Source: an uncultured Actinomycetes bacterium (GTDB lineage Bacteria; Actinomycetota; UBA4738; HRBIN12). From it: DNA of 64,000 nt. The notes beneath the pieces are model-generated. The model was not told the DNA's origin. It saw only the letters and a list, made by a program, of their open reading frames with translations, and ran no database searches. This document shows, one piece after another, positions 12,071-24,547 of this stretch (position 1 is its first letter; each line of letters begins with the position of its first letter). Position numbers and translations under genes: made by a program. The stretch is taken from positions 267,768-331,767 of the forward strand of contig CAVROD010000004.1 of the NCBI GenBank assembly GCA_963722795.1, written 5' to 3'.

Positions 12071-13678
12071 GTGCGTGCAACCTTGGAACGCCAGACCCCC
12101 GAGCTGAGTGACTATCTCGCCATCCTCTGGCGACGCAAGTGGACGATCGCGATCGCCACGATCGCCACGGTCTCGTTGTCACTGTTGAACTCCTTCCGCG
12201 AGGATCCGACCTACGTCTCGACCGCCGAGGTCCTCGTGATGCCGGTGCGCGACCCCTCACAGCCGTTCGCCACCACCGTCTTCATGGAGAACGAGGTTCG
12301 CATCGCGAGCTCGGCGCCGGTCAGCGAGCGCGCGCTCGATTCGCTTCCCTCCGACGCACCCGGGGTGGGCGCGATCTCGGTCTCGGCCGTGCCCGAGACC
12401 GATACCCTGATCTTCAACAGCCGTGCAGGGGACCCCCGCACCGCCCAGCTCACCGCGCATGCGTACGCGACGGCGTACCTCGGCTACCGCGAAACGACCC
12501 TGTTCGCCAGGGTGGACGCCCAGGAGGAGCAACTCGATACCCTCGCTTCCGACCTGCGGACGCAGATCGCCGAGGAGTCCGACCCTGCCGAGGTCGCCAG
12601 GCTGCAAGGCGAGCTGAGCGACATCGAGAGCCAGATCAGAGAGCTCACCCTCGTGCGCAGTCAGGAGGTCGGCGTGCTCCTGCAGGACGCGGTGGAGCCC
12701 CGGTCCCCCGCCTCGCCCAACCACATCAAGGCGTTCGTGCTCGGCCTCCTGCTGGGCCTGATCGCGGGCGTCTCACTCGCCCTGTTGTTCGAGCGCCTGG
12801 ATCCGCTCGTGCGCAATCGCGAGGAAGTCGAAGCCGCAACGGGCCTGTCGATCCTCGGCATGATCCCGACCAGCCAGAAGCGACCGAAGGTCAAGGGTGC
12901 CGTCACGCAGCTCGCCGATCTCTCGAAGGATCCGATGGTCACCGAGGCGTTCCGAGGACTCCGGTCTCGAGTGCTGTTCCTCGCATCGCAACAGCGCCTG
13001 CGCACGATCGTGATGACGAGCTCGAAGGAGGCGGAGGGCAAGACGACCACCTCGCTCGGGCTGGCTCGCACCCTCGCCGAAGCCGGCAAACGCGTGGTGT
13101 TCGTGGCGGCCGACCTCCGGCGCCCGTCGCTGGATCGCTTCGTGCCCGAGGCACGGAGCAAGTACGGCCTCTCCGATGTCCTCGCGGGGAAGATGATCCT
13201 CGACGACGCGATCGTGTCGACGTCGGTCGAGAACCTCTTCGTGGTGCCGCACGGTCGTTCCGGAGACCACACCGACAAAGGGCTCGCGACGCTCCCGATC
13301 TCCGAGGTGCTGGGCCAGCTCGAGGAGCAGGCCGATTTCGTGATCGTCGACACGACGCCCGTCCTCGGCGCGTCCGATGCCCTCGACCTGGTCCCTCTGG
13401 TCGACGGTGTGATCTTCGCGATCGACGCACGCAAGACACCCCGATCGGAGATCGGAAGCGCCATCAGCGACCTCTACTCGGTCGGAGCCCCGATGATCGG
13501 TGTGGTCGTCACGAACTACGACCCGGCCCGGTTCAGGGCTCGCGCTCACTACTACTCGACGTGGGTCCAAGAGCCCGAGATCGTCGCGCCGGCCCCGACG
13601 AGAGCCGTCAACGAGGATCCAGTCATGCTCACCCCGCGCGCGCGTCGTCGAGGCACCGGCACGTCGTCGATGCCGTGA
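12071..13678 (+). CDS. polysaccharide biosynthesis tyrosine autokinase (Wzz-like chain-length domain plus BY-kinase domain)
   Basis: N-terminal LSDYLAILWRRKWTIAIATIATV (Wzz-type TM). Walker A SSKEAEGKTTTSLGLA, A' VVFVAADLRRP, Walker B FVIVDTTPVL. Confidence 0.85.
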   Translation: MRATLERQTPELSDYLAILWRRKWTIAIATIATVSLSLLNSFREDPTYVSTAEVLVMPVRDPSQPFATTVFMENEVRIASSAPVSERALDSLPSDAPGVGAISVSAVPETDTLIFNSRAGDPRTAQLTAHAYATAYLGYRETTLFARVDAQEEQLDTLASDLRTQIAEESDPAEVARLQGELSDIESQIRELTLVRSQEVGVLLQDAVEPRSPASPNHIKAFVLGLLLGLIAGVSLALLFERLDPLVRNREEVEAATGLSILGMIPTSQKRPKVKGAVTQLADLSKDPMVTEAFRGLRSRVLFLASQQRLRTIVMTSSKEAEGKTTTSLGLARTLAEAGKRVVFVAADLRRPSLDRFVPEARSKYGLSDVLAGKMILDDAIVSTSVENLFVVPHGRSGDHTDKGLATLPISEVLGQLEEQADFVIVDTTPVLGASDALDLVPLVDGVIFAIDARKTPRSEIGSAISDLYSVGAPMIGVVVTNYDPARFRARAHYYSTWVQEPEIVAPAPTRAVNEDPVMLTPRARRRGTGTSSMP

Positions 13679-15465
13679 GCAGCCTCGGCGCGATCCTGGT
13701 GCGCAGGGGCAGGCCCGATCCTGCACAGTTGCGGCGGCTGCTGGAGGCATCCCCGCACCGTGGAGCCCCGGCGGCGCCCGCCGAGTTGGGAGCCGTGATC
13801 GTCGGGGTGACCACCGATGACGTCGGCGACACGAGCATGGCCGTCTCCGGTGACCTCGTCGCGGCGGTCGTCGGCTCCTTCGATGACGGCGAGGACCTCG
13901 CGGCCGAGCTCACGCGTGCCGGCATCGAGATGACCGGAACGTCGCCCGCGGATCTCCTGCTGGGCTCGCACCGAGCATGGGGTTCGGGATGCATCGAGCG
14001 TCTGCGGGGGACCTTCGCCTGCGTGGTGACCGATGGACGCACCCTCTGGAGCAGTCGCGATCACCTCGGGTTCCGGACACTCTTCTACCGCGACGATGCC
14101 GGCGCCTTCGTCGTGGCGACCGAGGCCAAGCAGGTCGCGGCGGGTGCCGGCATCGCGGCCGAGCCCGACCTCGACGTGCTCGAGACGGTCTTCTACAGCG
14201 AGTACGACGACGAGACGCCGTCGGCACTGCGGGGTGTCCGTCGCCAGCCCAAGGCCACGACGATCCGGGCCGAGGAGCATGGAAGCCGGATCCGGCGTTA
14301 CTGGTATCCGGAGCGACTGCTCGAGACGGCACGCCTCAGCGACGACGAGCTCGCCGAGGCATTCCACGAGCGCATGCGCGTGGCAACCGCCCGGAGCCTC
14401 GGCGGCGACGACGTCGTCGCCTTGTCCGGCGGCATCGACTCCCCTGCGGTCGCAGCCTATGCGGCGCCGACCTATCTCGAGCGCACGAGCGAGCCGCTCG
14501 GGGCGCTCTCCGCCGTGTACCCCGACCACCCCGAATGCGACGAGACGCCGTACATCGAGGATGCTGCCAACGCGATGGGCCTCAAGCTCCACACGTTCGT
14601 TCGGAGCGCGCCGATCATCAGCGACCTGCAGGAATGGGTTCGCCTCTTCGACGGCCCGGCGCCGCAATGGACGGTCTCGCAGGGCGTCGAGTTCCACCAC
14701 GTCGCGAAGGAACTCGGGTTCCGCAACATCATGACGGGCGAGATCGCCGAGTTCGTGATCGACTCGCGCCAGCACACGATGGAACACCTGCTGCTGCATC
14801 TGCGCCTCGGCGCCCTCCGCACCTACGTGGGCAGCATGCGATCGAAGGGCTTCGGGCGGAAACGCATCGCGCGAGAGCTGCTCGGGGGCATCGCCCCGCC
14901 GTCGGCATGGGCCGCGTACCTGCAACTGCGTCCGCCGAAGGACGCGTGGACGCCGGCGTGGGTCACGTCTCGCGGTCCCGGCGAAGGCATCGGCTACGAG
15001 GTGTACAAGCGTCCGGCCCGCGAGCGGTGGGAGAAGGCGCAGGTCATGAGTTTCTTCGGCGCCCCGGGCCTGTCGCAGGAAGCGGACAGCGTCGTCCAGG
15101 CCGTGACCGGCATGCGCGTGCGGCGGCCCTTCGCCGATGTGGACCTGTGGGAGTTCTTCCTCAGCCTGCCTGCCGAGCAGAAGTTCCCCCGGAACGAGAC
15201 GAAGGGCCTCATCCGGCAGCTCTTGCGAGGGCGGGTTCCCGATTCGATCCTCGATCGCACCGACAAGACGCATTTCAACGACTACATCATGGCGAGCGTC
15301 GACTACGAGGAGCTCGGTCGATGGGTGCGCGATCCGCAGGTCCGCGTGCGCGGGGTCGACTACGCGCTGCTCGCCCAGCGCCTGGACGCCAGGGACCTCA
15401 GCCTTCCGGAGTACATCTGGGCCAAGGACCTGGCCGGCGTCCACGCCTTCCTGGGGCTGTGGTGA
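13675..15465 (+). CDS. asparagine synthase-related protein lacking the N-terminal Cys nucleophile (lasso-cyclase-like or glycan amidotransferase)
   Basis: GTG start overlaps the kinase stop (GTGA). It begins VSSLGAILV rather than MCG. PP-loop VALSGGIDSPAVAAY. 596 aa. The upstream part of the 1108-aa ORF is shadow sequence. Confidence 0.8.
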   Translation: MSSLGAILVRRGRPDPAQLRRLLEASPHRGAPAAPAELGAVIVGVTTDDVGDTSMAVSGDLVAAVVGSFDDGEDLAAELTRAGIEMTGTSPADLLLGSHRAWGSGCIERLRGTFACVVTDGRTLWSSRDHLGFRTLFYRDDAGAFVVATEAKQVAAGAGIAAEPDLDVLETVFYSEYDDETPSALRGVRRQPKATTIRAEEHGSRIRRYWYPERLLETARLSDDELAEAFHERMRVATARSLGGDDVVALSGGIDSPAVAAYAAPTYLERTSEPLGALSAVYPDHPECDETPYIEDAANAMGLKLHTFVRSAPIISDLQEWVRLFDGPAPQWTVSQGVEFHHVAKELGFRNIMTGEIAEFVIDSRQHTMEHLLLHLRLGALRTYVGSMRSKGFGRKRIARELLGGIAPPSAWAAYLQLRPPKDAWTPAWVTSRGPGEGIGYEVYKRPARERWEKAQVMSFFGAPGLSQEADSVVQAVTGMRVRRPFADVDLWEFFLSLPAEQKFPRNETKGLIRQLLRGRVPDSILDRTDKTHFNDYIMASVDYEELGRWVRDPQVRVRGVDYALLAQRLDARDLSLPEYIWAKDLAGVHAFLGLW

Positions 15466-15469
15466 TCGC

Positions 15470-16471
15470 ATGCTGACCGCCGATGACACCGACCGATTGA
15501 AGGGATCGCGGCCCCCCGGCCCCCCCGCCGCGATCGATGTCGTCGATGTCGCTCGCTCGTTCGGCCCGAAGCAGGTCCTGCGCGATGTCTCGCTCGCCGT
15601 CGCGCCCGGCGAGATCCATGCCGTGCTCGGCCCCAACGGCGCGGGCAAGACGACCTTGATGCGCATCGTGGTCGGCCTCACGCACCCCGACAACGGCTCG
15701 GTGTGGATCGAGGGCGAGCAGACCCAGGAGGCACGCTCACGAGACGAGCGACGCCGGGTGCAGATGGTGCCCTCGGGCGACCGAACGTTGTACCTGCGCA
15801 TCTCTGGCATCGAGAACCTGGCCTTCTTCGGACGGCTCGCCGGCATGTCCCGCAAGGAGGCGCTCGAGGCCGGCTACCGCAGCCTCGGGGCAGTGGGACT
15901 CACCGACGTCGCCAAGCAGCGTGTGCACACCTACTCCCATGGCATGCAGAAGCGCCTGTCGATCGCCCGAGCGTTGCTCACGGAACCCCCGATCCTGGTC
16001 TTCGACGAGGCGACGCACGACCTCGACCCGGCAGGCGCGCACACCATCCTCGAGCTCGTTCGCGGCGCAGCGTCGCGCGGCACCGCGGTGATCTGGACCA
16101 CCCAGCGGGTCGAGGAGATCCGGGGGTTCTGCGATCGCGTCACCCTGCTGCACGAAGGCACGATCCGGTTCTCGGGCTCGGTGCCCGAACTCATCGCGCA
16201 GGGCTCCGGGCGTCGGTACCTGGTGCAACTTCGGACCGCCGACGGACGGGATCCGTTCGCCGCTGCGATCGCGACGAACCCCGACCACGTGGTGCTCGAG
16301 CGGCTCGAGCACGGCTCCGAGGGACAGGTCCGCATGTCGCTCGGCGAGCGGGCGTCCGTCGGCGACGCGATCGCCGCGCTCACCGGTGCGGGTATCGACG
16401 TCGTGGCCTGTCACCTCGAGGGGTCGGAGATCGAGGACGCGTTCCTGCGGCTCACGGGGGAGACGACGTGA
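15470..16471 (+). CDS. ABC transporter ATP-binding protein
   Basis: Walker A GPNGAGKTT, signature-like YSHGMQKRLSIA, Walker B ILVFDEATHDLD. It starts 4 nt after the upstream stop. Confidence 0.9.
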   Translation: MLTADDTDRLKGSRPPGPPAAIDVVDVARSFGPKQVLRDVSLAVAPGEIHAVLGPNGAGKTTLMRIVVGLTHPDNGSVWIEGEQTQEARSRDERRRVQMVPSGDRTLYLRISGIENLAFFGRLAGMSRKEALEAGYRSLGAVGLTDVAKQRVHTYSHGMQKRLSIARALLTEPPILVFDEATHDLDPAGAHTILELVRGAASRGTAVIWTTQRVEEIRGFCDRVTLLHEGTIRFSGSVPELIAQGSGRRYLVQLRTADGRDPFAAAIATNPDHVVLERLEHGSEGQVRMSLGERASVGDAIAALTGAGIDVVACHLEGSEIEDAFLRLTGETT

Positions 16472-17322
16472 GCGTGCAGCCGATGCACCGTTCCCGCCTC
16501 TCCGCGATCCCCGAGGACCTCCGCAAGCTCGGTGCGTTCATCCGGCGCGACTTCCTCGTGCTCATCAGCTACCGGATCGGGTTCCTCTCGGACTGGTTCA
16601 ACCTGCTCGTGCAGGTGCTGATCCTGTACTTCGTCGGCAAGCTGATCGACCCGTCGACCCTGCCGGAGTACGGAGGGACGCAGCCGAGCTACGTCGAGTT
16701 CGCCGCAGTGGGCATCGCCGTCGGATCGCTCGTGCAGGCCAACCTCGCCAGGGTGATGGCGGCCATCAGAGGCGAGCAGCTGATGGGCACCCTCGAGATG
16801 GTGTTCCTCACCCCGACCGCGCCCACCACCGTGCTGTTGGGCTCGGTCGTCTACGACCTGATCTACGTGCCGGTGCGCACGGTGATCTTCCTCGTGCTGT
16901 TGACGGTCCTGCTCGACCTCGGGTTCTCGTTCACGGCCATCGGGCCGTTGGTGATCGTGCTGTTGGCGTTCATCCCGTTCCTGTGGGGGCTCAGCTTGAT
17001 CGGCGCCGGCAGCATGCTCACGTTCCGTCGCGGCGGCGGCATCGCGGGCATCGTCGGGCTCGTGCTCGTGGTGGCATCAGGCAGCTACTTCCCGATCACC
17101 GTGCTGCCGACATGGCTGCAGTCCTTCGCCGAGAACAACCCGGTCACCGTGGCCGTCGACGGTGTGCGAGAAGCCTTGCTCGGGACCGCGAATGCCTCCG
17201 ACGCGATCAACGACGCGCTCACGATCCTTCCCTACGCGGTCGTCTCGCTCGCCGTCGGCCTCGTCGCGCTCCGCGTCGCGCTGCGTCGTGAGCGCCAGCG
17301 GGGCACGCTCGGCACGTACTGA
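16468..17322 (+). CDS. ABC-2 type transporter permease
   Basis: GTGA overlap with the ATPase gene. Six hydrophobic segments. FIRRDFLVLISYRIGFLSDWF is a typical ABC-2 N-terminus. Confidence 0.8.
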   Translation: MSVQPMHRSRLSAIPEDLRKLGAFIRRDFLVLISYRIGFLSDWFNLLVQVLILYFVGKLIDPSTLPEYGGTQPSYVEFAAVGIAVGSLVQANLARVMAAIRGEQLMGTLEMVFLTPTAPTTVLLGSVVYDLIYVPVRTVIFLVLLTVLLDLGFSFTAIGPLVIVLLAFIPFLWGLSLIGAGSMLTFRRGGGIAGIVGLVLVVASGSYFPITVLPTWLQSFAENNPVTVAVDGVREALLGTANASDAINDALTILPYAVVSLAVGLVALRVALRRERQRGTLGTY

Positions 17323-17371
17323 GGGCCTGCGCACGACCGGGCCGCACGGCGATCAGACGAGGAGCGACCGC

Positions 17372-18226
17372 ATGTGGGAGGACACGTTCGACCGGGCGGC
17401 TCCGGACTACGACGCTCCCGAGTTGTCGTTCCTCGACGACGCGGCGGCGGCCCTGGCCGAGGCGGCCGGCATCCAGGCGGGCGAGCGGGTGCTCGACGTC
17501 GCGACCGGCACCGGCAAGCTGGCGGCCTCGGCGGCCCGCGAGGTGGGAGAACGCGGTTTCGTGGCGGGCCTCGACGTCTCGGGCGGCATGTTGCGGCAGG
17601 CGCGGCGGAACGTGGCGAGCCCGAGAGCGTCGTTCGTGCAAGCCGATGCAGCCCTGCTCCCTCTGCGTGATGGCTCGTTCGATCTCGCGCTGATGGGGTT
17701 CGGCATCTCCTTCCTTCCCGCGCCGATCGCCGCGTTCCGCGATGTGCGTCGAGTGTTGCGGGGGAACGGCCGACTCGGGCTGTCGACCACAGCCCACGAT
17801 TGCTTCGCTCCGTTGCTCGGCGTCTTCCTCGACGCGCTCGAACGAGCCGGCATGCCTCGCCCCCGTCCCTCGCATGAAGCCTGGCGATCCGTCGACCGAC
17901 CCGAGCACCTCGAGCACGTGCTGCGGCGCGCGGGGTTCGCGGAGCGCCGGGTGCGGCGCCTCGAGCTCGGGACGTTCCTGGCGGATCCCCTGGAGTTCTG
18001 GGCGCTCCTGCGAGGGAGCGCCTGGCGTGGCACGATCGACCGGCTCTCGCCGGAGCACCGAGTGCGCGTGCGGGAAGAGCTCGGTGTGGGAGCCGAGAGG
18101 CTCCGGGAGGCGCGAGGCATCCCGCTTCGGACGCCCGTCTTGATCGCGACCGCCACGCGCGGCCGAGTGCCGCTGCGCACGCTGGCCGGGCCGATCGCCG
18201 GCCGGGTGAGGAAGGTCCTCGGTTGA
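17372..18226 (+). CDS. class I SAM-dependent methyltransferase
   Basis: GAGGAG RBS then ATG at 17372. Motif I VLDVATGTGKLA; post-I LDVSGGML; DGSFDLALMGFG. Confidence 0.8.
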   Translation: MWEDTFDRAAPDYDAPELSFLDDAAAALAEAAGIQAGERVLDVATGTGKLAASAAREVGERGFVAGLDVSGGMLRQARRNVASPRASFVQADAALLPLRDGSFDLALMGFGISFLPAPIAAFRDVRRVLRGNGRLGLSTTAHDCFAPLLGVFLDALERAGMPRPRPSHEAWRSVDRPEHLEHVLRRAGFAERRVRRLELGTFLADPLEFWALLRGSAWRGTIDRLSPEHRVRVREELGVGAERLREARGIPLRTPVLIATATRGRVPLRTLAGPIAGRVRKVLG

Positions 18227-19254
18227 GGGCCGCGGGCCGCACGCTCGTGGCGGGCTGGTTCAGCTTCCCCGACACCGGGGCGACGGCGGGCGACCTGATG
18301 GCGATGCAGGTCGTCCGCAGCTGGCTCGACGGTGCGCACATCCCCTACGACGTCGCGCTCGCCCCCAGGTACGGCCACGGCGTCGAGTGGGGCTCGGCCG
18401 ATCCGCAGCGGTACTCGCACGTCGTCTTCGTCTGCGGCCCCTTCTACCGCTCCGACCTGCTTCGCAGGTTCGAGGGGAGCCGCCTCGTGGGCGTCGATCT
18501 GTCGATGGTGGACCCGATCGAGGGATGGAACCCGTTCGACCTGCTGCTCGAGCGAGACAGCACGCAAGCCTCTCGGCCGGATCTCGCGATCGCCGCTCCG
18601 GTCACGCGGGTGCCCGTGGTCGGCGTGTGTCTGTTGCCGCCGGACACCGCGAAGGTCGCGACCGATCGATACCTCGCAGCCGACGAGGCCGTCGCCCGTC
18701 TCCTCGAGCGCCATGACGTTGCGCCGGTCGTGATCGACACCGAGCTGTCGGACGGCGCGATGGACCTCCGCAGCCCTGCGGCGGTCGATTCCCTCGTCGC
18801 CCGCGCCGACGTCGTCGTGTCCACGCGCCTGCACGGGCTCGTCCTGGGTCTTCGCAACGGGGTGCCGGTGCTGGCGATCGATCCCGTTCCCGGGGGTGAG
18901 CGGGTGCGCCGCCAGGCCGAGGCGCTCGGCTGGTCGCCCGTGCTGGGGCCAGATGAGCTGGATGATGCATCGCTCGACCGAGCGTTCGAGCAGTGCCTGT
19001 CACCCGAGGCCCGTGATCGGGCCGCGGCGAGCACGAACGAGGGGCGCGACGCGGTGGCCGAGATCGGGTCCACGCTGGTCGCGGCGATCGCCGACGACGA
19101 CGGCAGTCCCGGGTGGGGAGACGGTCGCCGTCGGGGTGGGTGGACGCTTCCCGAAGGCACGACATCGTCCCTGCAGGCGGCGCCCGGGCGCCTCGGTGGC
19201 GGAGCCCGGGCCGTGCGAGCCGTGCGCAGGCGGCTCGGGAAGGGGTCGAGGTGA
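18223..19254 (+). CDS. polysaccharide pyruvyl transferase family protein
   Basis: TTG start overlaps the upstream stop. GWFSFPDTGATAGDLMA...ADVVVSTRLHGLVLGLRNGVPVLAIDP resembles the PS_pyruv_trans pattern. This is a recollection-based call. Confidence 0.65.
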   Translation: MRAAGRTLVAGWFSFPDTGATAGDLMAMQVVRSWLDGAHIPYDVALAPRYGHGVEWGSADPQRYSHVVFVCGPFYRSDLLRRFEGSRLVGVDLSMVDPIEGWNPFDLLLERDSTQASRPDLAIAAPVTRVPVVGVCLLPPDTAKVATDRYLAADEAVARLLERHDVAPVVIDTELSDGAMDLRSPAAVDSLVARADVVVSTRLHGLVLGLRNGVPVLAIDPVPGGERVRRQAEALGWSPVLGPDELDDASLDRAFEQCLSPEARDRAAASTNEGRDAVAEIGSTLVAAIADDDGSPGWGDGRRRGGWTLPEGTTSSLQAAPGRLGGGARAVRAVRRRLGKGSR

Positions 19255-19928
19255 CGCCCGGCCGTGTGGTCGTGCTCTCGACCCATCTCGACGACGGGGT
19301 GCTGTCGATCGGGGGGTGGATGCATCGGGCGGCGCGCGGTGGCTCCGCCATCACCCTCGTCACCGTGCTCGCGGGCGATCCGAACGACACGAGACCGGGA
19401 AGCGACTGGGATCGCCGTTCGGGATTCTCGACGGTCGGTGAGGCGGCCACCGCCCGACGTGCCGAAGACCGGCGAGCATGCGCGATCCTGGGGCTTCGAA
19501 CCTCGTGGCTGCCGTTCGGCGACATGCTCCAGGGCAGGGGCGCTTCGGACGAGGCTGTCTGGAACGCGCTCGTGCCGCTGCTCGCGAACGCCGACCTCGT
19601 GCTGGGGCCGGGGTTCCCGCTGAGCCATCCCGATCACGCGTGGCTCGCGACGCTGTTGCACGGGGAGGGCGGGAGCCTGCCGACGGGCTTCTATGCCGAG
19701 CAGCCGTATCGTCACCATGGCGGGGGCGCGCTGGGCGATCCGCCGAGCGCGGGGGAGGGGATCCGTTGGGAGCCGGTCCGGTTGTCCCCCCGTGAACGGT
19801 GGGCCAAGTTCCGCGCCGTGCGTGAGTACCGCTCCCAGCTCGCCTTGCTGAGCGACCGCCGGGGGCTCGCCCGGCGGCTGGGTCTCGCCCGCGGCGATGC
19901 AGGGGAGGCGCTCGCATGGGGGCCCTGA
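19251..19928 (+). CDS. PIG-L/LmbE family deacetylase
   Basis: GTGA overlap with the upstream gene. VVVLSTHLDDGVLSIGG and LSHPDHAWL are metal-binding motifs of the family. Confidence 0.75.
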   Translation: MTPGRVVVLSTHLDDGVLSIGGWMHRAARGGSAITLVTVLAGDPNDTRPGSDWDRRSGFSTVGEAATARRAEDRRACAILGLRTSWLPFGDMLQGRGASDEAVWNALVPLLANADLVLGPGFPLSHPDHAWLATLLHGEGGSLPTGFYAEQPYRHHGGGALGDPPSAGEGIRWEPVRLSPRERWAKFRAVREYRSQLALLSDRRGLARRLGLARGDAGEALAWGP

Positions 19929-20620
19929 GCTCGGTCCGCCGCCGGGTCCGCCGCTTCAGGCGCTTGGTCGCGCGGCGACCGCCCGTGGGCCTGGTGCGCT
20001 TCGGCAGCCTGCGCAGGACGACGCCGATCGGCCATGAGTGGGGTGAGGATCGGGGTCTGCCCGTCGACCGGGTTTACATCGACCGATTCATGAACGCCCA
20101 TCGCTCCGACATGCGCGGGCACGTGCTCGAGGTTCAGTACCCGGTGTACACCGGCCGCTTCGGCTCGGCGGTCACGGAGACCGACGTGCTCGACATCCGT
20201 GCGGACAACCCCGCGGCCACGATCGTGGCCGACCTCACCGCGGCCGCCATGGTCCCCGATGACACGTTCGACTGCGTGGTGCTGACACAGACGCTGCACC
20301 TGATCCACGACCACGTGGCGGCGGTTCGAGAGGTACACCGCATGCTGCGCCCTGGCGGGGTGCTGCTGGCGACGGTCCCGGGCATCTCGCCCGTCGTCGA
20401 CACCACCGCGCGGTGGTGCTACACGCCGTTGTCCGTTCGTGAGATCTTCGCCGGCGTGTTCGGGTCCGAGCACATCGATGTCGAGTCGTTCGGCAACGTG
20501 CTCACCGCGACGGCGTTCCTCTACCAGCTGGGGGCGCGGGAACTGCGGGCGGCGGACTATGCCGCGCGCGACCCCGCGTACCCCATGGTGATCGCGGTGC
20601 GGGCGGAGAAAGGGTCGTGA
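19916..20620 (+). CDS. class I SAM-dependent methyltransferase
   Basis: 234 aa. FDCVVLTQTLHLIHD...MLRPGGVLLATVPG (Methyltransf_11-like). It overlaps the upstream gene by 13 nt. Confidence 0.8.
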   Translation: MGALSSVRRRVRRFRRLVARRPPVGLVRFGSLRRTTPIGHEWGEDRGLPVDRVYIDRFMNAHRSDMRGHVLEVQYPVYTGRFGSAVTETDVLDIRADNPAATIVADLTAAAMVPDDTFDCVVLTQTLHLIHDHVAAVREVHRMLRPGGVLLATVPGISPVVDTTARWCYTPLSVREIFAGVFGSEHIDVESFGNVLTATAFLYQLGARELRAADYAARDPAYPMVIAVRAEKGS

Positions 20621-21616
20621 CCGCGATCAGCGTCGTCGTGCCGACGAGGAACCGAGCCCAGGTGCTGGGGTCCTCGCTCGCCTCGATCGCAGCGCAGCGA
20701 GCGGGCGCCGACTTCGAGGTGATCGTCGTCGACAACGCCTCCTCCGACGGCACGACGGATCTGCTCCGTGCATGGACCGCTCGGGACGACCGGTTCCGCC
20801 TCGTACGGGAAGAGCGGCTCGGGCGGAGCTGCGCGATGAACGCCGGGATCTCGGTCGCCGCAGGTTCCCTGCTGTTGTTCACCGACGACGACGTGGAGCT
20901 CGCTCCCGGCTGGGTGGAATCGTTCCGTCGGTTCTTCGCGTCGCACGAAGGCCCTCGTCATCGCCGGAGGGGCGATCGAGCCCGCGCCCCCCGACCTGTC
21001 GTCGTGGCCCTCGTGGTTGTCGCCGGCGTCGCGTTCGGCCGACGGCCCGGGCCTCGACCACGGCGAGGATGAGCGAGCGCTGGCGTCCCACGAGTTCCTG
21101 TGGGGCGCGAGCATGGCGGTGCCCGCCGAGGTCTTCGAACGACTGGGCACCTGGAACGAGACGGTCGGCCGACGAGGAGACCATCGGGGTACCTTCGAGG
21201 ACATCGACTTCCAGCAGCGCCTGCGCGCGGCGGGCGGCTCGGTCTGGTACCTGCCCGACGCTCGGCTGCGCCACCGCGTGCCCACGGCCGAGGTGACGCC
21301 CCGGCGCATCCTCCTGCGGGCGTACCGCAACGGCCGCAACGACGCATGGTTCCCGCCGGGCGGCGAGGCACGTCCGCCGCGGGCGTCGTGGGTGCGGGGG
21401 AGGCCTTCGCGCGGTGGATGGCCGTGACGATCGCCTTCCGTGCTCGCCCCGATGCCGCCGCCTTCGATCGTGCCCGCGATGCCGCCCGGCACGCCGGTCG
21501 GGCCGGCGAGCGGGTGGCGATCGGCCGCCATCGAGCTCGCGCCTTCGTCCAGCGGCTCGCGTGGGCTTTCGCGAGCGCGGATCCTGAGGGTCGCGCCCGA
21601 TCGACCGTCGCGTTAG
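20617..21616 (+). pseudogene. family 2 glycosyltransferase (at least 2 frame breaks; 3' end uncertain)
   Basis: ISVVVPTRNRAQVL...EVIVVDNASSDGT...LLLFTDDDV. It continues in other frames (WGASMAVPAEVFERLGTWNE...FEDIDFQQRL...WYLPDARLRHR). Confidence 0.65.
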
Positions 21617-22561
21617 GGCAGGCAGGTCGCCACGATGAGCTCGACCAGGTCGTCGAGGTCATCGAAGCGAAGATCGCGGTGCAGGTTCCAGGAGGGGACG
21701 CTCGCCGCCAGCCCCGCGACACCGTGGAAGCATCGCGATCGGTCCTCGTGCGTCGGCAGGTGCAGGCTGAGCGCCCACAGGTCGGGGATCGTGTCGGCCG
21801 GCTGCCGGCGCTCGAGCACCGGGGAGCCCTCGCCTCGGCGCAGGAACACGATGCCTGCGATCGGCACCGGGTCGCCGGTGCCTCGCCGCGGTGGCGTCGA
21901 GGGCGACGTGCACCCGGTCGGGCTCCTCGGCGATGACCTCCACGTCGGGCACGTCGATCGAGCCGTGCACGTCGGGGCGGAGCCGGAGCAACGCGGGTCC
22001 GGGGAAGATCGAGGGATGCGATGTCGGCCGGATGCGGGCCAGATCCTCCGAGAGCATGCGGTAGCCCGCCCGATGGAAGGCCGCCGCGGTCGTGGTCTTG
22101 CCGTGGCGCCCCGGAGCGGGGAAGAGGATCGCCCGTCCGCCTACCTCGACGGCGGCGCTATGCAGCGAGATGTCGCCGTGGGCGAGATAGCTCGTCGCCG
22201 TCGGGATGCCCCACAGCCGCTGCTCGCGCCTGACCGAGTGCCCTCGATCGGAGAGCCCGATCGAGGGTACCGACGGATCGGCGACGAACCAGCCTTCGCG
22301 GTCGGTCCAGAACGCGAACCGTCCGTCGTCGGCGTAGAGCGAGGCACGGAAGTCCCGTCCTGCTCGCAGCGGCCACTCCAGCATCGCGTCGCCCACCGGA
22401 GCCGGATCGGCGTCGAGCTGGTGCACGTCGAGGGGATCCGTGATGCCTCCGAGGTCACGCAGGAACCGCCACGCGATCGGTGAGCGCACGGCATAGCCGT
22501 GGATCGCGCCCAGCGGGGCGATGCGCTCGTCGTCGGTGCTCTCGGCCCCGGTCGCGGTCAC
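21613..22561 (-). pseudogene. HPr kinase-related P-loop kinase (one frame break near 21870)
   Basis: LHSAAVEVGGRAILFPAPGRHGKTTTAAAFHRAGYRMLSEDL resembles HprK C-terminal domains. GTG start overlaps the oxygenase stop (GTGA at 22558-22561). The tail IAGIVFLRRGEGSPVLERR... lies in the 21613..21867 frame. Confidence 0.7.
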
Positions 22562-23268
22562 CGAGCGCGGTGGTACCAGCCACCGATCGAGACACGGGCC
22601 GTGCCCTGCGACGCACTCTCGACCGGCAAGACCTCGTGCACCGATTGAGCCTGCACGTCGAACATCACGATCGAGTTGAAGTCGGCATGTACCTGGTGGG
22701 TGGTGCCGGCGCCGTCGATCATCGCGAGCGTGCCGCCGTACTCCGGCCGCCAATCCGGGTTCAGGTAGAGCACGAGCGCGAGCCGGCGGTCCTTGTTGTC
22801 GTCGGTGTGATGCCGCAGGAAGTCGCCTGTTCGCATCGAGTGCACGCCGAAGTCGTCGCTCGCCGTGAGCGGCAACCCGCTCACCGCGGCGAAGAACGAG
22901 CGGAAGGCGTCGGTCTGCAGCGCCTGTCGGAACTGCAGGTACGTCAGGGCGTTCGGGCTGAACTGGTGCTCGGCGGGCACCCCGTGCAGCCTGGAGAGCC
23001 GGAAGAACCGGTCGTCCTCGGTCGCACCCTCGTACTGCGACTCGGAGACGCCCCCCTCGACCGAGAAGATGCCGTACTCGGTCTCGTAGTCGGCCTCGTC
23101 GAGCAGGAACCGTGCGAGGTGTTCGGCCTTCTCCTGCACGAGCAGGTCGTGCACGACGAGCATGCGCGCAGGATGGGAGTCGAGCGATGTTCGATACGAC
23201 GCGAGTGCGTCGTCGTCGAGGTGCTGGGGCTGGAACCAGGGCTCGAGGGCGTTGCGATCGATCGTCAT
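22558..23268 (-). CDS. 2OG-Fe(II) oxygenase, prolyl-4-hydroxylase-like
   Basis: Starts MTIDRNALEPW. Facial triad candidates FLRHHTDDN (HxD) and SVHEVLPV. RLALVLYLNPDW...GGTL is typical of 2OG-FeII_Oxy_3. Confidence 0.75.
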   Translation of the reverse strand: MTIDRNALEPWFQPQHLDDDALASYRTSLDSHPARMLVVHDLLVQEKAEHLARFLLDEADYETEYGIFSVEGGVSESQYEGATEDDRFFRLSRLHGVPAEHQFSPNALTYLQFRQALQTDAFRSFFAAVSGLPLTASDDFGVHSMRTGDFLRHHTDDNKDRRLALVLYLNPDWRPEYGGTLAMIDGAGTTHQVHADFNSIVMFDVQAQSVHEVLPVESASQGTARVSIGGWYHRAR

Positions 23269-23403
23269 GGTTCGCCGATGGTAGTCGACCGATGGGGGCG
23301 AGACATCCGTCCGATGGTCACTCCTCGGGGGCCGTGTGGCACTGCTAGGATGCGCCACACCCGCGAGGCTGCGAGGCAGTTCCCGAGAGGAGATGGGCAC
23401 GCG

Positions 23404-23706
23404 ATGATCGATGATGCCACCGTCGTCCGGCGCAACCCGACCGTCGAGTACAGGAGCTTGGGCGCCGACGACGGGGGAGGCGTGCTGCTGCACGTCGGCA
23501 CCGGCGCCTATCACGGGTTGAACGAGGTCGGCGCCGCCGTCTGGGCCCTGCTCGAGCCCGAGCAGGGAGTCGCCTTCGGCTCGATCGTCGAAGGGGTGCG
23601 CGGCCAGGTCGAGGAGGCGCCGGAGAACCTCGCCGAGGAGATCGGCGAGTTCCTCGAGGACCTCTCGACCCGCGACCTTGTGAGCCTGGGCGCGACGGAA
23701 GGCTGA
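23404..23706 (+). CDS. PqqD-family protein (RiPP recognition element, lasso B1-like)
   Basis: 100 aa: MIDDATVVRRNPTVEYRSLGADDGGGVLLHVGTGAYHGLNEVGAAVWALLEP... is the canonical PqqD pattern. An alternative ATG exists at 23350. Confidence 0.8.
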   Translation: MIDDATVVRRNPTVEYRSLGADDGGGVLLHVGTGAYHGLNEVGAAVWALLEPEQGVAFGSIVEGVRGQVEEAPENLAEEIGEFLEDLSTRDLVSLGATEG

Positions 23707-23721
23707 GCGCCGCCGCCGACC

Positions 23722-24159
23722 CTACGAGTATCGAGCGATCTGCTCGTGCCGCCCCTTGCCGGGCGGTGGTCCCACGTCGACCCCGCCGATCTCGATCCAT
23801 GCATGCGCGTCCTTGTCGCGGGGCTCGCGCGGCAGGCCGATCACCAGCTCGACCCCGTCGCCCTGCTCCCGCAGGAGCCGGAACAGCACCAGCGACGTGA
23901 ACAGGCATCTGGCCTTGAGCGGGCCGAATCGCAGCACCATGTACACGAGCTGTCCGAGGCGTCGTGGGTGCGCGTAGAGGGTGCGACCGGGGCGGGCCGG
24001 CGCTCGCAACGTGGCCACCACGGCGGGGAGCGGTCGCGTGCGAACAGCGCGAGCCACCAACACGTATGACGCGAGGATGTGCGGCGCGAGCCTGATCTTG
24101 TCCAGCAGACGCAGTGGGCGGGGCACTCCGCGGAGCTCGGGCTGGGGGCGTGTGCTCAT
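23722..24159 (-). CDS. lasso peptide B2-like transglutaminase-fold cysteine protease
   Basis: 145 aa from MSTRPQPEL. KARCLFTSLVLFRLLREQG...DKDAHAWIEIGGVDV gives the Cys/His catalytic context typical of B2 proteins. Confidence 0.8.
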   Translation of the reverse strand: MSTRPQPELRGVPRPLRLLDKIRLAPHILASYVLVARAVRTRPLPAVVATLRAPARPGRTLYAHPRRLGQLVYMVLRFGPLKARCLFTSLVLFRLLREQGDGVELVIGLPREPRDKDAHAWIEIGGVDVGPPPGKGRHEQIARYS

Positions 24160-24208
24160 GGGCGGGTGGAGGTCACCTGGCGCCTCAGAGCTCGTTGCCC
24201 TCGCACGC

Positions 24209-24241
24209 AAGAACGCCCGCGCCGAGGGCGCGGGCGTTCTT
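24209..24241 (-). terminator. perfect hairpin between the precursor and B2 genes (attenuator/terminator candidate)
   Basis: aagaacgcccgcgcc-gag-ggcgcgggcgttctt: 15-bp stem, 3-nt loop, 27 nt downstream of the precursor stop. There is no clear U tract. Confidence 0.5.
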
Positions 24242-24268
24242 GTCGAAACGCGTTTCGATCAGAAGCGG

Positions 24269-24415
24269 TTAGCTTCCGACTTCCTCGTGCGACAGCTCGC
24301 CGTACTCGTCCGGCTTCGCAGGCGGCTTGCCGCCCTTCTGCTGTCCACCAGGGGTGGTGAACGTGTGGTCGGAGATAGGACCGAAGTCCGTCACCTGGGG
24401 CTTCTCGTACTGCAT
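24269..24415 (-). CDS. RiPP precursor peptide with lasso-type leader (48 aa; below the ORF-track cutoff)
   Basis: Manual translation: MQYEKPQVTDFGPISDHTFTTPGGQQKGGKPPAKPDEYGELSHEEVGS*. GGAGG lies 6 nt upstream of the ATG. The leader fits YxxPxL/V...G.....T-x. It sits between the NTase and B2 genes on the same strand. Confidence 0.7.
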   Translation of the reverse strand: MQYEKPQVTDFGPISDHTFTTPGGQQKGGKPPAKPDEYGELSHEEVGS

Positions 24416-24547
24416 ACCCAACCTCCATGGTCGTCGGGGTCGGCCGACTATAACCCAGAATGACCCACACTGTGTAGGCCGAATGGGCTAATCCTGCAAG
24501 AAATTTCACCTGCGTCGGATGACCCGGCGGGCACATGCATCCGGGCG

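What the first reader, a model, noticed from the sequence alone, without database searches (positions are those of the whole stretch)
13675..17322. Asn-synthase homologue without the Cys nucleophile, coupled to an ABC-2 exporter: candidate displaced lasso cyclase or glycan amidotransferase
Seen: a 596-aa protein with an intact PP-loop (SGGIDS) begins VSSLGAIL instead of the MCG(I/V) glutaminase nucleophile. Its start overlaps the BY-kinase stop, and it is followed after 4 nt by an ABC ATPase and an ABC-2 permease (GTGA-coupled). Established: lasso cyclases are Asn-synthase B homologues that lack glutaminase chemistry, and actinobacterial lasso clusters usually carry an ABC exporter. However, Asn-synthase homologues also amidate sugars in O-antigen/EPS loci, and ABC-2 (Wzm/Wzt-type) pumps export glycans. 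Inference: this pair, 6 kb from the B1/B2/precursor module, may be its missing C and D functions. Equally it may belong only to the polysaccharide pathway. The sequence alone does not decide.
Basis: partly seen in the sequence, partly recalled or inferred. Interest (0 to 1): 0.6.

Follow-up and report, generated by a model that had tools for sequence, protein, structure and literature searches.

The report
Lasso-type peptide cyclase and exporter
The asparagine-synthase look-alike and its two-gene pump are the ring-closing enzyme and exporter of a lasso-type peptide gene cluster, not sugar-pathway genes, and they belong to a large unstudied enzyme clade whose peptides lack the residue that normal lasso rings need.

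Summary
A 596-aa AsnB-fold protein (13675-15465) has Ser in place of the Cys nucleophile and an intact SGGIDS loop. It overlaps the BY-kinase stop (GTGA). An ABC ATPase follows after 4 nt, and a GTGA-coupled ABC-2 permease follows that.

I fetched 80 loci that encode a homologue. Of the 46 with at least 8 kb on both sides:
- 45 carry the HprK-like kinase, 44 the ABC ATPase, 43 PqqD/B1, 41 the ABC-2 permease and 41 B2.
- Only 5 carry a BY-kinase and 1 a sulfotransferase.

The usual gene order is precursor > cyclase > D1 > D2 > B1. The pair is therefore the C and D function of the lasso-type module. Here tailoring genes separate it from B1/B2/A, and a 79%-identical relative has the same order.

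The family has more than 1000 members, none of the aligned ones with Cys. It forms a 100/100-supported clade outside the Cys-bearing Asn synthases. It fails NCBI's lasso-cyclase cut-off.

Strict lasso chemistry does not fit. This window's core has no Asp/Glu at positions 7-9. Instead, 50 of 56 cores carrying the E-x-S motif have a Lys 12-14 residues before that Glu.

Earlier follow-ups on this same window reached the same cluster-level reading. A look-up by sequence found no note on other DNA.

The parts
12083..13678 (+). BY-kinase (Wzz plus P-loop tyrosine autokinase). It is the upstream neighbour, and its stop overlaps the cyclase start. It is context and probably not a core part of the module.
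   Evidence: It passes TIGR01007 eps_fam at 116.5 bits against a cut-off of 108. The overlap is GTGA. A BY-kinase lies within 10 kb in only 6 of 80 related loci.
13675..15465 (+). Cys-less AsnB-fold ATP-dependent amide-bond enzyme. It is the C (cyclase-type) protein of the lasso-type cluster.
   Evidence: Sequence and domains. Family alignment. Synteny. Tree. The AF2 model has pLDDT 91.4. The best fold matches are TsnB9, beta-lactam synthetase and AsnB.
15470..16471 (+). ABC exporter ATPase (D1), DrrA-like.
   Evidence: ABC_tran 2e-32. The best NCBIfam match is TIGR01188 drrA at 183.7 bits, below the cut-off of 312. It is present in 68 of 80 related loci.
16468..17322 (+). ABC-2 permease (D2), DrrB-like, GTGA-coupled to D1.
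   Evidence: ABC2_membrane 1.3e-13. The overlap is shown. It is present in 62 of 80 related loci at a median 49% identity.
17372..18226 (+). UbiE-type methyltransferase, lineage-specific. It is the first gene of the block inserted between D2 and B1.
   Evidence: Methyltransf_25/11. It occupies the same position in L119 and was not found in the 80 loci.
18223..19254 (+). Polysaccharide pyruvyl-transferase-like gene, lineage-specific.
   Evidence: PS_pyruv_trans 3.5e-9. It occupies the same position in L119 and was not found in the 80 loci.
19239..19928 (+). PIG-L-type deacetylase-like gene.
   Evidence: tblastn with the L119 PIG-L product gives 61% identity over 231 aa at 19239-19919.
19916..20620 (+). 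Second methyltransferase.
   Evidence: Methyltransf_11 7.6e-11. A homologue is present in 4 of 80 loci.
20617..21564 (+). GT2 glycosyltransferase, read in three frames in this assembly (two frame changes).
   Evidence: Glycos_transf_2 7.7e-26 on the first piece. The tblastn pieces lie at 20617-20949, 20957-21361 and 21364-21564. GT2 plus the 2OG oxygenase recur beside the precursor in related loci.
21619..22510 (-). HprK-like peptide kinase, with one frame change near 21898.
   Evidence: TIGR04352 HprK_rel_A 7.5e-11, below its cut-off. It is present in 75 of 80 related loci.
22558..23268 (-). 2OG-Fe(II) oxygenase.
   Evidence: 2OG-FeII_Oxy_4 6e-19. It is present in 10 of 80 related loci, usually next to GT2 and the precursor.
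23350..23706 (+). PqqD-type RiPP recognition element (B1). The start is ATG 23350 or ATG 23404.
   Evidence: PqqD 8.4e-11. The L119 homologue aligns from 23350. It is present in 70 of 80 related loci.
23722..24159 (-). Lasso leader peptidase B2.
   Evidence: It passes NF033537 lasso_biosyn_B2 at 47.9 bits against a cut-off of 33. It is present in 64 of 80 related loci.
24269..24415 (-). Precursor peptide MQYEKPQVTDFGPISDHTF / TTPGGQQKGGKPPAKPDEYGELSHEEVGS.
   Evidence: The ORF is listed. The leader fits Y(-17)xxP(-14)xV(-12)xxxG(-8)xxxxxT(-2)x. The same leader type occurs in 62 of 81 sources, that is the 80 loci plus the window.
24548..25570 (-). PF14907 nucleotidyltransferase (N).
   Evidence: NTP_transf_5 4.5e-28. 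It is present in 24 of 80 related loci.

Best explanation
**What the genes are.** The genes at 13675-17322 are the C and D components of a paeninodin-like, lasso-type RiPP cluster that spans about 13675-25570.

- The 596-aa protein is an AsnB-fold enzyme whose glutaminase half is catalytically dead (Ser2 in place of Cys) and whose ATP-pyrophosphatase half is intact.
- It most likely adenylates a side-chain carboxylate of the precursor's core peptide and closes an intramolecular amide (isopeptide) bond, as lasso cyclases do. It would work together with the RRE (B1) and the leader peptidase (B2).
- The two downstream genes form a DrrAB-type ABC-2 exporter that pumps out the mature peptide, and may also protect the producer.

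**Shown here:**
- the fold;
- the loss of Cys;
- the conserved PP-loop and conserved Arg and Lys in the C-terminal domain, whose catalytic role I take from recall of AsnB and beta-lactam synthetase;
- tight genomic linkage to A, B1, B2, K and D across phyla;
- purifying selection.

**Inferred:**
- that the reaction is a macrocyclisation;
- which atoms are joined.

**Which bond.** The canonical N-terminus-to-Asp/Glu(7-9) ring is not possible on this window's core. My preferred guess is a Lys-to-Glu (or Lys-to-Asp) side-chain isopeptide between K8 and E21 (or D17). A Lys lies at a fixed distance before a conserved Glu across the family, while its distance from the N-terminus varies.
For: **Sequence and family**
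- the sequence features, and a DrrA/DrrB-like pump.
- more than 1000 homologues. The 120 best are 556-639 aa except one of 512, and all 30 aligned ones begin M[GS][SA][IL] without Cys.
- S251-G-G-x-D255-S256, R483, D488, D490 and K531 are invariant.
- R483, D488 and K531 align with the RVPFLD and K-E-A-F stretches of asparagine synthetase.
- NCBI-named lasso cyclases (Rubrobacter taiwanensis P0123, and the Priestia cluster with B1/B2) also begin MS[AG]I[AV]G.

**Synteny and distribution**
- the neighbour counts, and the usual order precursor>C>D1>D2>B1.
- C is immediately followed by D1 and D2 in 20 loci. D1 and D2 lie just upstream in 26.
- L119 (79% identity) has the window's order, with the genes abutting or overlapping.
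- neither the protein nor B2 was found in the 4 same-genus genomes.
- the genome's only other Asn_synthase homologue sits in a separate B1-B2-C-A cluster with a canonical core (A1...E9). The window's B1/B2/A therefore has no partner other than this gene.

**Phylogeny, structure and selection**
- the family clade has 100/100 support and lies outside the 100/99 Cys2 clade, which includes the S. meliloti pSymB asnB.
- the model is confident and the best fold matches are AsnB-type.
- dN/dS 0.14-0.17.

**Core peptides**
- Lys lies 12-14 residues before the E of E-x-S in 50 of 56 cores. Shuffles give a mean of 13 and a maximum of 25 in 2000. That Lys lies 7-22 residues from the N-terminus.
- residue 1 is highly variable (D, T, Q, S, V, I, M, Y, R...).

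**Literature**
- PMC8498205: paeninodin and pseudomycoidin clusters carry the same A/B1/B2/C/D/K/N gene set.
- PMC13381572: paeninodin-like lasso clusters embedded in capsule loci have been described.
Against: - The protein does not reach the curated score of the NCBI lasso-cyclase model (144 bits against 525). It scores equally against Asn synthase (151.6 bits against 267).
- The tree does not resolve whether the family is sister to lasso cyclases.
- The window's core has no acceptor at positions 7-9. Only 20 of 63 distinct cores do.
- One family member (L022), nested inside the clade, sits next to two canonical cores (G1...D8). This argues that at least some members use the N-terminal amine.
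- The Lys...Glu spacing could instead reflect recognition motifs for the kinase, the oxygenase or the glycosyltransferase. Related sequences also inflate the shuffle statistic.
- In this assembly the kinase and the GT2 gene are frame-broken, so the pathway may not be complete in this strain.
- No product has been observed.
Confidence: 0.8

Rival explanations
1. It is a canonical lasso cyclase. It joins the N-terminal alpha-amine of core residue 1 to an Asp/Glu side chain at position 7-9 and so makes a threaded lasso.
For: - The gene set and the leader motif are those of lasso clusters.
- L022, a family member, has two cores with G1 and D8.
- 20 of 63 cores have an acid at positions 7-9, for example DNPGxGD7K.
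Against: - The window's core TTPGGQQKGGKPPAKPDEY... has its first acid at position 17.
- 43 of 63 cores have none at positions 7-9.
- Residue 1 is often bulky or beta-branched (T, V, I, Y, R).
- In the P3-G4 register, position 8 is Lys where L022 has Asp.
Confidence: 0.05
2. It is a glycan or sugar-nucleotide amidotransferase of the surrounding exopolysaccharide locus, and the ABC-2 pair is a Wzm/Wzt-type glycan exporter.
For: - Its start overlaps the BY-kinase stop.
- Methyltransferase, pyruvyl-transferase, PIG-L and GT2 genes follow in the same operon.
- A Wzy-type EPS locus with five sulfotransferases lies downstream.
- It gives a weak hit to TIGR03108 eps_aminotran_1 (96 bits).
Against: - No member aligned has the Cys nucleophile, so glutamine cannot be the nitrogen donor.
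- The TIGR03108 score is 96 bits against a cut-off of 817.
- In the 46 fully flanked loci, BY-kinase occurs in 5 and sulfotransferase in 1. The pyruvyl-transferase and the UbiE-type methyltransferase were found in none of the 80 loci. RiPP genes occur in 41-45 of the 46.
- It lies outside the Cys2 clade.
- The pump's best matches are DrrA/DrrB, and the Pfam scan listed no further domain on the ATPase.
- The EPS locus carries a Wzy_C gene and a BY-kinase. By general knowledge such loci are Wzx/Wzy-dependent and need no ABC pump.
Confidence: 0.04
3. It acts on the peptide but does not cyclise it. Either it amidates a Glu, Asp or C-terminal carboxylate with free ammonia, or it ligates the peptide through a carboxylate or through Lys to another molecule, such as an amino sugar or a carboxylated (pyruvylated or uronic) sugar made by the neighbouring genes.
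For: - AsnB-fold enzymes carry out many amide-forming reactions. TsnB9 hydroxyamidotransferase and beta-lactam synthetase are the closest solved relatives.
- GT2, PIG-L and pyruvyl-transferase genes lie within the same operon here and in L119.
- The cluster is embedded in a glycan locus.
Against: - The pyruvyl-transferase was found in none of the 80 loci, and PIG-L was not sought there. Any general function of the family cannot depend on the pyruvyl-transferase.
- The fixed Lys-Glu spacing, with a variable N-terminal length, fits an intramolecular pairing better.
- The family keeps the gene order and partners of lasso cyclases.
Confidence: 0.12
4. The three genes are intact, but the pathway is decaying in this strain, so the pair has no working substrate pathway here.
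For: - Relative to L119, the GT2 gene has two frame changes and the HprK-like kinase has one.
- The genome is a 67%-complete, 4-contig assembly.
Against: - C, D1, D2, B1, B2, A, N and the 2OG gene are intact.
- dN/dS is 0.14-0.17.
- The frame changes may be assembly errors.
- The kinase and GT2 are tailoring functions, not core ones.
Confidence: 0.15

Closest known systems
Paeninodin (pade) and pseudomycoidin (psm) lasso-peptide clusters of Bacillota, and related proteobacterial clusters (PMC8498205; Zhu et al. 2016 and Zyubko et al. 2019 as cited there)
   Same: - The gene set matches: precursor with a YxxP...T(-2) leader, PqqD RRE (B1), B2 peptidase, Cys-less AsnB-type cyclase (C), ABC exporter (D), HprK-like kinase (K) and PF14907 nucleotidyltransferase (N).
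- The core ends in Ser (39 of 63 cores), the residue that the paeninodin kinase phosphorylates.
- Paeninodin-like clusters embedded in capsule loci have been reported (PMC13381572).
   Different: - The cyclase is only about 25% identical to an NCBI-named cyclase of that type (P0123) and forms its own clade.
- The exporter is a split DrrAB-type ABC-2 pair rather than a fused ABC transporter. The Rubrobacter, Priestia and Antarctobacter reference clusters each carry a single long ABC gene.
- The core lacks Asp/Glu at positions 7-9. It carries instead a conserved Lys...(12-14)...E-x-S module.
- 2OG oxygenase and GT2 are recurrent extra genes.
Lasso peptide isopeptide bond-forming cyclase (NCBIfam NF033535), for example Rubrobacter taiwanensis P0123
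   Same: - Two-domain AsnB fold.
- Ser replaces Cys at residue 2 (MSAIAG... against MSSLGA...).
- SGGxDS loop.
- Next to an HprK-like kinase and an ABC exporter.
   Different: - It scores 144 bits against a cut-off of 525.
- It sits in a separate 100/100-supported clade on a long stem.
- The substrate core is non-canonical.
Class V lasso peptides (lariocidin B, gelatinamin A; PMC13178200)
   Same: - A Lys side-chain isopeptide exists in a lasso-type peptide.
- The exporter is encoded by two genes (gelD1/gelD2).
   Different: - There the Lys2-to-C-terminus bond is made by a clostripain-like transpeptidase (GelP), after a canonical N-terminus-to-Asp8 ring made by GelC.
- Here I saw no such peptidase in the cluster, and the canonical acceptor is missing.
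Glutamine-dependent asparagine synthetase B and EPS-associated amidotransferases (TIGR01536, TIGR03108; E. coli AsnB 1ct9)
   Same: - The overall fold and the PP-loop ATP site.
   Different: - No Cys nucleophile.
- The residues that align with 'GETYN' of the solved relative 7ylz read GSFDD here. I recall that stretch as the glutamine-binding NGE motif of AsnB.
- It scores below both cut-offs.
- It falls in a different clade.
- Its neighbours are RiPP genes, not sugar-pathway genes.
Linear polyphosphorylated peptides (LPP) of Bacillota (Popov et al. 2026, PMC13381572)
   Same: - RRE, HprK-like kinase and PF14907 NTP-transferase.
- Location within polysaccharide loci.
   Different: - LPP clusters use an SpI-type signal peptidase and have no cyclase.
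- This cluster has B2 and the AsnB-type enzyme.

Membership tests
Lasso peptide cyclase (C protein) | AsnB-type two-domain fold with an intact PP-loop (SGGxDS) ATP site | tested here: met
   GATase_7 plus Asn_synthase. S251GGIDS256 is invariant across the family. The AF2 model has pLDDT 91.4, and the best fold matches are TsnB9, beta-LS, AsnB and CarA.
Lasso peptide cyclase (C protein) | No N-terminal Cys nucleophile (no glutaminase chemistry) | tested here: met
   Residue 2 is Ser here and G/S/A in the aligned homologues. NCBI-named cyclases in my set also start MS[AG]I.
Lasso peptide cyclase (C protein) | Encoded with B1 (PqqD RRE), B2 (Transglut_core3) and a precursor whose leader has YxxP and Thr at -2 | tested here: met
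   In the window all lie within 9 kb. Of the 46 fully flanked loci, 43 have PqqD, 41 have B2 and 45 have HprK. Precursors with this leader occur in 62 of 81 sources.
Lasso peptide cyclase (C protein) | Reaches the curated score of NCBIfam NF033535 | tested here: not met
   144 bits against a cut-off of 525. All 30 family members match, the best at E 2.7e-48. The window's score is below the cut-off; scores of the other 29 were not listed.
Lasso peptide cyclase (C protein) | Substrate core with Asp/Glu at positions 7-9 to receive the N-terminal amine | tested here: not met
   The window's core has its first acid at position 17. Only 20 of 63 family cores have an acid at positions 7-9.
Lasso peptide cyclase (C protein) | Falls within the lasso-cyclase radiation in a phylogeny | tested here: inconclusive
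   It is a distinct 100/100 clade outside the Cys2 clade. Reference cyclases are long, unresolved branches. The nearest is the genome's own canonical cyclase, at only 67/67 support.
Lasso peptide cyclase (C protein) | Product is a dehydrated (-18 Da), threaded macrolactam | not testable with these tools
   This needs expression and MS/NMR.
Glutamine-dependent Asn synthase / glycan amidotransferase (TIGR01536, TIGR03108, WbpS-type) | N-terminal Cys nucleophile | tested here: not met
Glutamine-dependent Asn synthase / glycan amidotransferase (TIGR01536, TIGR03108, WbpS-type) | Reaches the curated family scores | tested here: not met
   TIGR01536: 151.6 bits against 267. TIGR03108: 96.2 against 817. 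TIGR03104: 97 against 570.
Glutamine-dependent Asn synthase / glycan amidotransferase (TIGR01536, TIGR03108, WbpS-type) | Conserved linkage to polysaccharide genes | tested here: not met
   Of the 46 fully flanked loci, BY-kinase occurs in 5, GT1 in 10 and sulfotransferase in 1. The pyruvyl-transferase was found in none of the 80 loci. No WbpS sequence was available for the tree.
DrrAB-type ABC-2 exporter | Separate ABC ATPase and ABC-2 membrane protein, adjacent and co-oriented | tested here: met
   ABC_tran and ABC2_membrane, with a GTGA overlap. The best NCBIfam hits are drrA (183.7 bits) and drrB (39.9 bits), both below their cut-offs.
Wzm/Wzt glycan ABC exporter | Wzt-type ATPase with a C-terminal glycan-binding domain, and linkage to an ABC-dependent glycan pathway | tested here: not met
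   The Pfam scan of the 333-aa ATPase listed only ABC_tran and AAA-type families. The adjoining locus has Wzy_C and a BY-kinase. The pump co-occurs with RiPP genes.

The most novel reading that the evidence does not exclude
This clade of Cys-less AsnB-fold enzymes does not make the N-terminal lasso ring. It closes a side-chain-to-side-chain isopeptide between a conserved Lys and a Glu (or Asp) 12-14 (or about 9) residues downstream. In this window that would be K8-E21 or K8-D17. The product would be a macrocycle of new connectivity, possibly threaded, made with lasso leader, RRE and peptidase machinery. It would then be phosphorylated, glycosylated or hydroxylated by the K, N, GT2 and 2OG enzymes. 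The family is widespread in soil Actinomycetota, Chloroflexota, Gemmatimonadota and Acidobacteriota.
Probability: 0.33. Interest if true: 0.85.

Novelty: new variant of a known kind. Interest (0 to 1): 0.6.

Why it matters
- **Annotation.** The result assigns a gene pair that sequence alone left ambiguous. It also shows that this 'EPS locus' contains a complete 12-kb peptide natural-product cluster.
- **A large unstudied clade.** The cyclase belongs to a clade of more than 1000 proteins. Public sources name them 'asparagine synthase' or 'asparagine synthase-related protein'. Their substrates mostly lack the residue that defines lasso ring closure.
- **Possible new chemistry.** If the enzyme joins Lys to Glu or Asp, that would be a new macrocyclisation carried out by a lasso-type enzyme, and a new peptide scaffold. 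If it does something else, the limits of what lasso cyclases accept would need redrawing.
- **Genome mining.** Tools that require an acid at positions 7-9 will probably miss these precursors. That is an inference, not something I tested.
- **An experimental handle.** A cultured strain with a family member exists: Phytoactinopolyspora alkaliphila CGMCC 4.7225 (L075).

Tried and rejected
- **Reference cyclases from genomes.** A search with NF033535 across 301 genomes of the phylum mostly returned housekeeping AsnB. Only one genome passed the cut-off. I therefore took reference cyclases from that hit's homologues and from annotated plasmid clusters.
- **Plasmid search with the window protein.** tblastn against plasmids found nothing closer than 27% identity.
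- **Solved structures.** PDB searches by sequence and by fold listed no chain named as a lasso cyclase. They cannot discriminate cyclase from synthetase.
- **First tree.** It contained a mis-extracted row (FAM_L019) and only quick support values. I rebuilt it without that row.
- **Tree resolution.** Even the careful tree leaves the position of the family relative to lasso cyclases unresolved.
- **Sugar amidotransferases.** I could not include a characterised WbpS-type enzyme, because none was reachable with the tools. S. meliloti pSymB asnB and the TIGR03108 score stand in for that comparison.
- **Literature.** Searches for Lys-type lasso cores or Lys-Glu cyclisation by a lasso cyclase found nothing. 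One query was too loose and returned noise.
- **L075.** It first looked like an exception with no B1, B2 or K. Its genome does have one Transglut_core3 gene, at coordinates that would fall inside the locus if contig C23 is Scaffold3.
- **Second cyclase.** I considered that the genome's second Asn_synthase homologue might serve the window's B1/B2/A. I rejected this, because that gene sits in its own B1-B2-C-A cluster with a canonical core.

Full report
**1.

- GTG at 13675 overlaps the TGA of the upstream gene (GTGA). That gene passes the curated model for polysaccharide tyrosine autokinases (TIGR01007, 116.5 bits against 108).
- The ORF 13675-15465 encodes 596 aa. It begins VSSLGAIL and carries LSGGIDSP. 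Pfam finds a glutamine-amidotransferase-type N-terminal domain and an Asn_synthase C-terminal domain.
- Four bases after its stop an ABC ATPase starts (ATG 15470). That gene's stop overlaps the GTG of an ABC-2 permease (16468-17322).
- The GTG start is real. Homologues of 590-600 aa align from the first residue, and their consensus is MGSIxAxL. Residue 2 is G, S or A in the aligned set and is never Cys.

**2. The surrounding genes**

| Position | Strand | Gene |
|---|---|---|
| 17372-20620 | + | UbiE-type methyltransferase, pyruvyl-transferase-like, PIG-L-like, second methyltransferase |
| 20617-21564 | + | GT2 glycosyltransferase |
| 21619-22510 | - | HprK-like kinase |
| 22558-23268 | - | 2OG-Fe(II) oxygenase |
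| 23350/23404-23706 | + | PqqD-type RRE (B1) |
| 23722-24159 | - | B2 peptidase, passes NF033537 |
| 24269-24415 | - | 48-aa precursor |
| 24548-25570 | - | PF14907 nucleotidyltransferase |

- The precursor's leader fits the lasso rule Y(-17)xxP(-14)xV(-12)xxxG(-8)xxxxxT(-2)x exactly.
- Beyond these genes lie a malectin/beta-helix protein, five sulfotransferases, a GT1 and a Wzy_C gene. That stretch is a Wzy-type glycan locus.

**3. Which neighbourhood the gene belongs to**

- The protein has more than 1000 homologues at 45-50% identity and of similar length.
- A scan of one genome per species returned 80 loci from Actinomycetota, Chloroflexota, Gemmatimonadota, Vicinamibacterales, a spirochaete and a Steroidobacteraceae MAG.
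- I ran tblastn with the window's proteins against these loci. The table gives the number of loci with a match.

| Gene | All 80 loci | 46 loci with at least 8 kb on both sides |
|---|---|---|
| HprK-like kinase | 75 | 45 |
| ABC ATPase | 68 | 44 |
| PqqD (B1) | 70 | 43 |
| ABC-2 permease | 62 | 41 |
| B2 | 64 | 41 |
| BY-kinase | 6 | 5 |
| Sulfotransferase | 1 | 1 |
| Pyruvyl-transferase, UbiE-type methyltransferase | 0 | 0 |

- The commonest order is precursor > AsnB-like > ABC ATPase > ABC-2 permease > PqqD, with B2 and the kinase convergent. The AsnB-like gene thus sits where the C gene of a lasso cluster sits. The pump sits where D sits.
- A leader-motif search found a precursor with the YExPxVxDFGSIADHTF-type leader in 62 of 81 sources. 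It is usually about 250 nt upstream of the AsnB-like gene.
- A 79%-identical relative (L119) has exactly the window's order. Its genes from the ABC ATPase to GT2 abut or overlap, followed by the kinase, oxygenase, PqqD and B2. The window's arrangement is therefore not an assembly artefact.
- The cluster is best described as contiguous (13675-25570) with a lineage-specific insert (17372-20614). It is not a cyclase displaced to another locus.
- The GT2-oxygenase pair recurs next to the precursor in other loci, so it is probably part of the peptide pathway.

**4. Distribution**

- The family is patchy. It was found in 4 of 61 genomes sampled in the order, counting the window's own. It was found in none of the 4 other genomes of the genus (92-97% complete).
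- Those four genomes also gave no Transglut_core3 match. Their BY-kinase homologues are only 30-34% identical.
- The cyclase and B2 are thus present together or absent together among close relatives.
- The genome's only other Asn_synthase homologue lies about 20 kb beyond the window. It sits in a compact B1-B2-C-A cluster of its own, and its core (ATTTGVKNE9...) is canonical.
- That second cluster is self-sufficient. It shows that the same organism also keeps ordinary lasso logic.

**5. What the protein is**

- It scores about equally against the Asn-synthase model (151.6 bits, cut-off 267) and the lasso-cyclase model (144 bits, cut-off 525). All 30 aligned members match both models with similar best E-values.
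- Conserved in the synthetase half are S251GGxDS256, R483-x-P-[FW]-x-D488, D490 and K531-T-x-F. R483, D488 and K531 align with the RVPFLD and K-E-A-F stretches of asparagine synthetase.
- In the N-terminal half, the residues that align with 'GETYN' of the solved relative 7ylz read GSFDD here. The family consensus there is GxLDN. The Rubrobacter lasso cyclase reads ARIDNREEL in its N-terminal part. That the GE.YN stretch is the glutamine-binding motif is again my recollection.
- NCBI-named lasso cyclases and a Priestia cyclase flanked by annotated B1 and B2 start MS[AG]I[AV]G. They have the same Cys-to-Ser change as this protein.
- The AF2 model is confident (pLDDT 91.4, pTM 0.91). Its best PDB matches are TsnB9, beta-lactam synthetase, AsnB and carbapenam synthetase. 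No chain named as a lasso cyclase was listed.
- A careful ML tree of 44 rows gives the following.
  - The family is one clade (100/100) on a long stem.
  - The Cys-bearing synthases, including S. meliloti pSymB asnB, form another clade (100/99).
  - The reference cyclases are long unresolved branches between the two.
- The tree excludes membership of the glutamine-dependent group. It does not prove sisterhood with lasso cyclases.
- dN/dS against L119 is 0.14-0.17 for all three genes.

**6. The pump**

- Its best family matches are DrrA and DrrB, both below their cut-offs. The Pfam scan listed no further domain on the ATPase.
- It stays next to the cyclase across phyla. It lies directly downstream in 20 loci and directly upstream in 26.
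- Two-gene exporters in lasso clusters are known, for example gelD1/gelD2 (PMC13178200).

**7. What the enzyme does**

The function is inferred.

- The window's core, TTPGGQQKGGKPPAKPDEYGELSHEEVGS, has no acid at positions 7-9. The class-defining lasso ring therefore cannot form.
- Among 63 distinct cores, only 20 have such an acid.
- 56 cores share a C-terminal block D-[KPM]-[FYM]-[GC]-E-x-S. A Lys lies 12-14 residues before that Glu in 50 of the 56. In 2000 shuffles of the residues upstream of that block the mean was 13 and the maximum 25. Relatedness inflates this contrast.
- That Lys is 7-22 residues from the N-terminus, and residue 1 is highly variable. Two cores without E-x-S (L010, L065) still have a Glu 13 residues after a Lys.
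- The conserved geometry is therefore Lys-to-Glu (or Lys-to-Asp at -4), not N-terminus-to-acid. An adenylating enzyme could join these side chains. This is my preferred mechanism, at roughly one chance in three.
- Against it: L022, nested inside the family clade, sits beside two canonical cores (GKPGHRYD8..., GQPGHRYD8...). These align in register with TTPGGQQK8. At least some members therefore probably use the N-terminal amine.
- The conserved Ser and Lys could equally be targets of the kinase and of the oxygenase or GT2.

**8. Comparison with the literature**

- The gene set is that of paeninodin/pseudomycoidin-type clusters. [quoted passage not shown]
- Paeninodin-like lasso clusters inside capsule loci have been described, together with the cyclase-less LPP family that uses a signal-peptidase-type leader peptidase (PMC13381572). 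This cluster has B2 and a cyclase, so it is not LPP.
- Lys side-chain isopeptides occur in class V lasso peptides. There a clostripain-like transpeptidase makes them after a canonical ring has formed (PMC13178200).
- I found no paper on lasso-type cores with Lys in place of the acceptor acid, or on this enzyme clade.

**9. Earlier notes of this scan**

- Follow-ups on this same window had already called the cluster lasso-type with a distant cyclase, and had noted the Lys in the core.
- My synteny, tree and congener tests reach the same cluster-level reading by my own computations.
- They add the quantified co-occurrence, the pump assignment, the exclusion of the glycan reading, the Lys-Glu spacing, the canonical-core member L022 and the second cluster.
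- A look-up by sequence found no note on other DNA.

**10. Verdict**

- The pair is the C and D of a lasso-type RiPP cluster (confidence about 0.8).
- The glycan reading is essentially excluded.
- The protein is not a demonstrable member of the strict lasso-cyclase family, because its substrate lacks the defining acceptor and it fails the curated score. It most likely works like one.
- Caveats:
  - The kinase and GT2 are frame-broken in this assembly.
  - The genome is 67% complete.
  - No product is known.

Noticed in passing
outside the window: G000:C4:350872-353250 (about 19-21 kb past window end): A second, compact lasso cluster in the same genome. It has PqqD (350872-351066), a weak B2 match (351132-351401) and a Cys-less Asn_synthase homologue (about 351.4-352.9 kb) that starts ..LSAIFGV and may be frame-shifted. 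Its precursor has the leader YEAPSVKDLGTLEAITG and the canonical core ATTTGVKNE9GGSVKT.
   Followed up: partly
window 20617-21564 and 21619-22510: Relative to the 79%-identical locus L119, the GT2 gene is split over three frames (breaks near 20949/20957 and 21361/21364). The HprK-like kinase is split over two frames (break near 21898). These are either assembly errors or real decay. The cyclase and pump genes are intact.
   Followed up: partly
window 12083-13678 / 13675: The BY-kinase is translationally coupled (GTGA) to the cyclase gene, and in L119 it also lies directly upstream. Yet a BY-kinase is within 10 kb in only 6 of 80 related loci. I did not explain why a polysaccharide co-polymerase kinase heads this peptide operon.
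   Followed up: partly
L022 (CAZRMD010000010.1), about 12120-12365 (-): A family member 44% identical to the window protein, nested inside the clade, lies next to two canonical lasso precursors. Their cores are GKPGHRYD8HGVFPASVP and GQPGHRYD8HGIFPASA, with the family's usual leader. In the P3-G4 register, position 8 is Asp there and Lys in the window.
   Followed up: partly
L075 (Phytoactinopolyspora alkaliphila CGMCC 4.7225, NZ_JAAGOB010000003.1): This is the only one of the 80 loci whose record title names a cultured strain rather than a MAG or uncultured isolate. Directly upstream of its family member (39% identical to the window protein) lies a precursor with the core SRCNPNLSGPPPK13DSADVPHHIDQHGE27CS... 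About 6 kb away lies a second, canonical-type precursor. This strain is a possible experimental handle.
   Followed up: no
window 24269-24415 and precursors in L001-L080: The cores share a C-terminal block D-[KPM]-[FYM]-[GC]-E-x-S-[HC]-[PG]. A Lys lies 12-14 residues before the Glu in 50 of 56 cores, although the N-terminal segment varies from 7 to 22 residues. Many cores also carry a pair of Cys.
   Followed up: yes
L086, L101, L105 (other Actinomycetota genomes): Further AsnB homologues start MSGIAG or MSGFIA, with Ser in place of Cys. L101 and L098 nest inside the Cys-bearing clade, so the nucleophile has been lost more than once. I did not examine their contexts.
   Followed up: no
window 19239-19928: A PIG-L-type deacetylase-like gene lies between the pyruvyl-transferase-like gene and the second methyltransferase.
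   Followed up: partly
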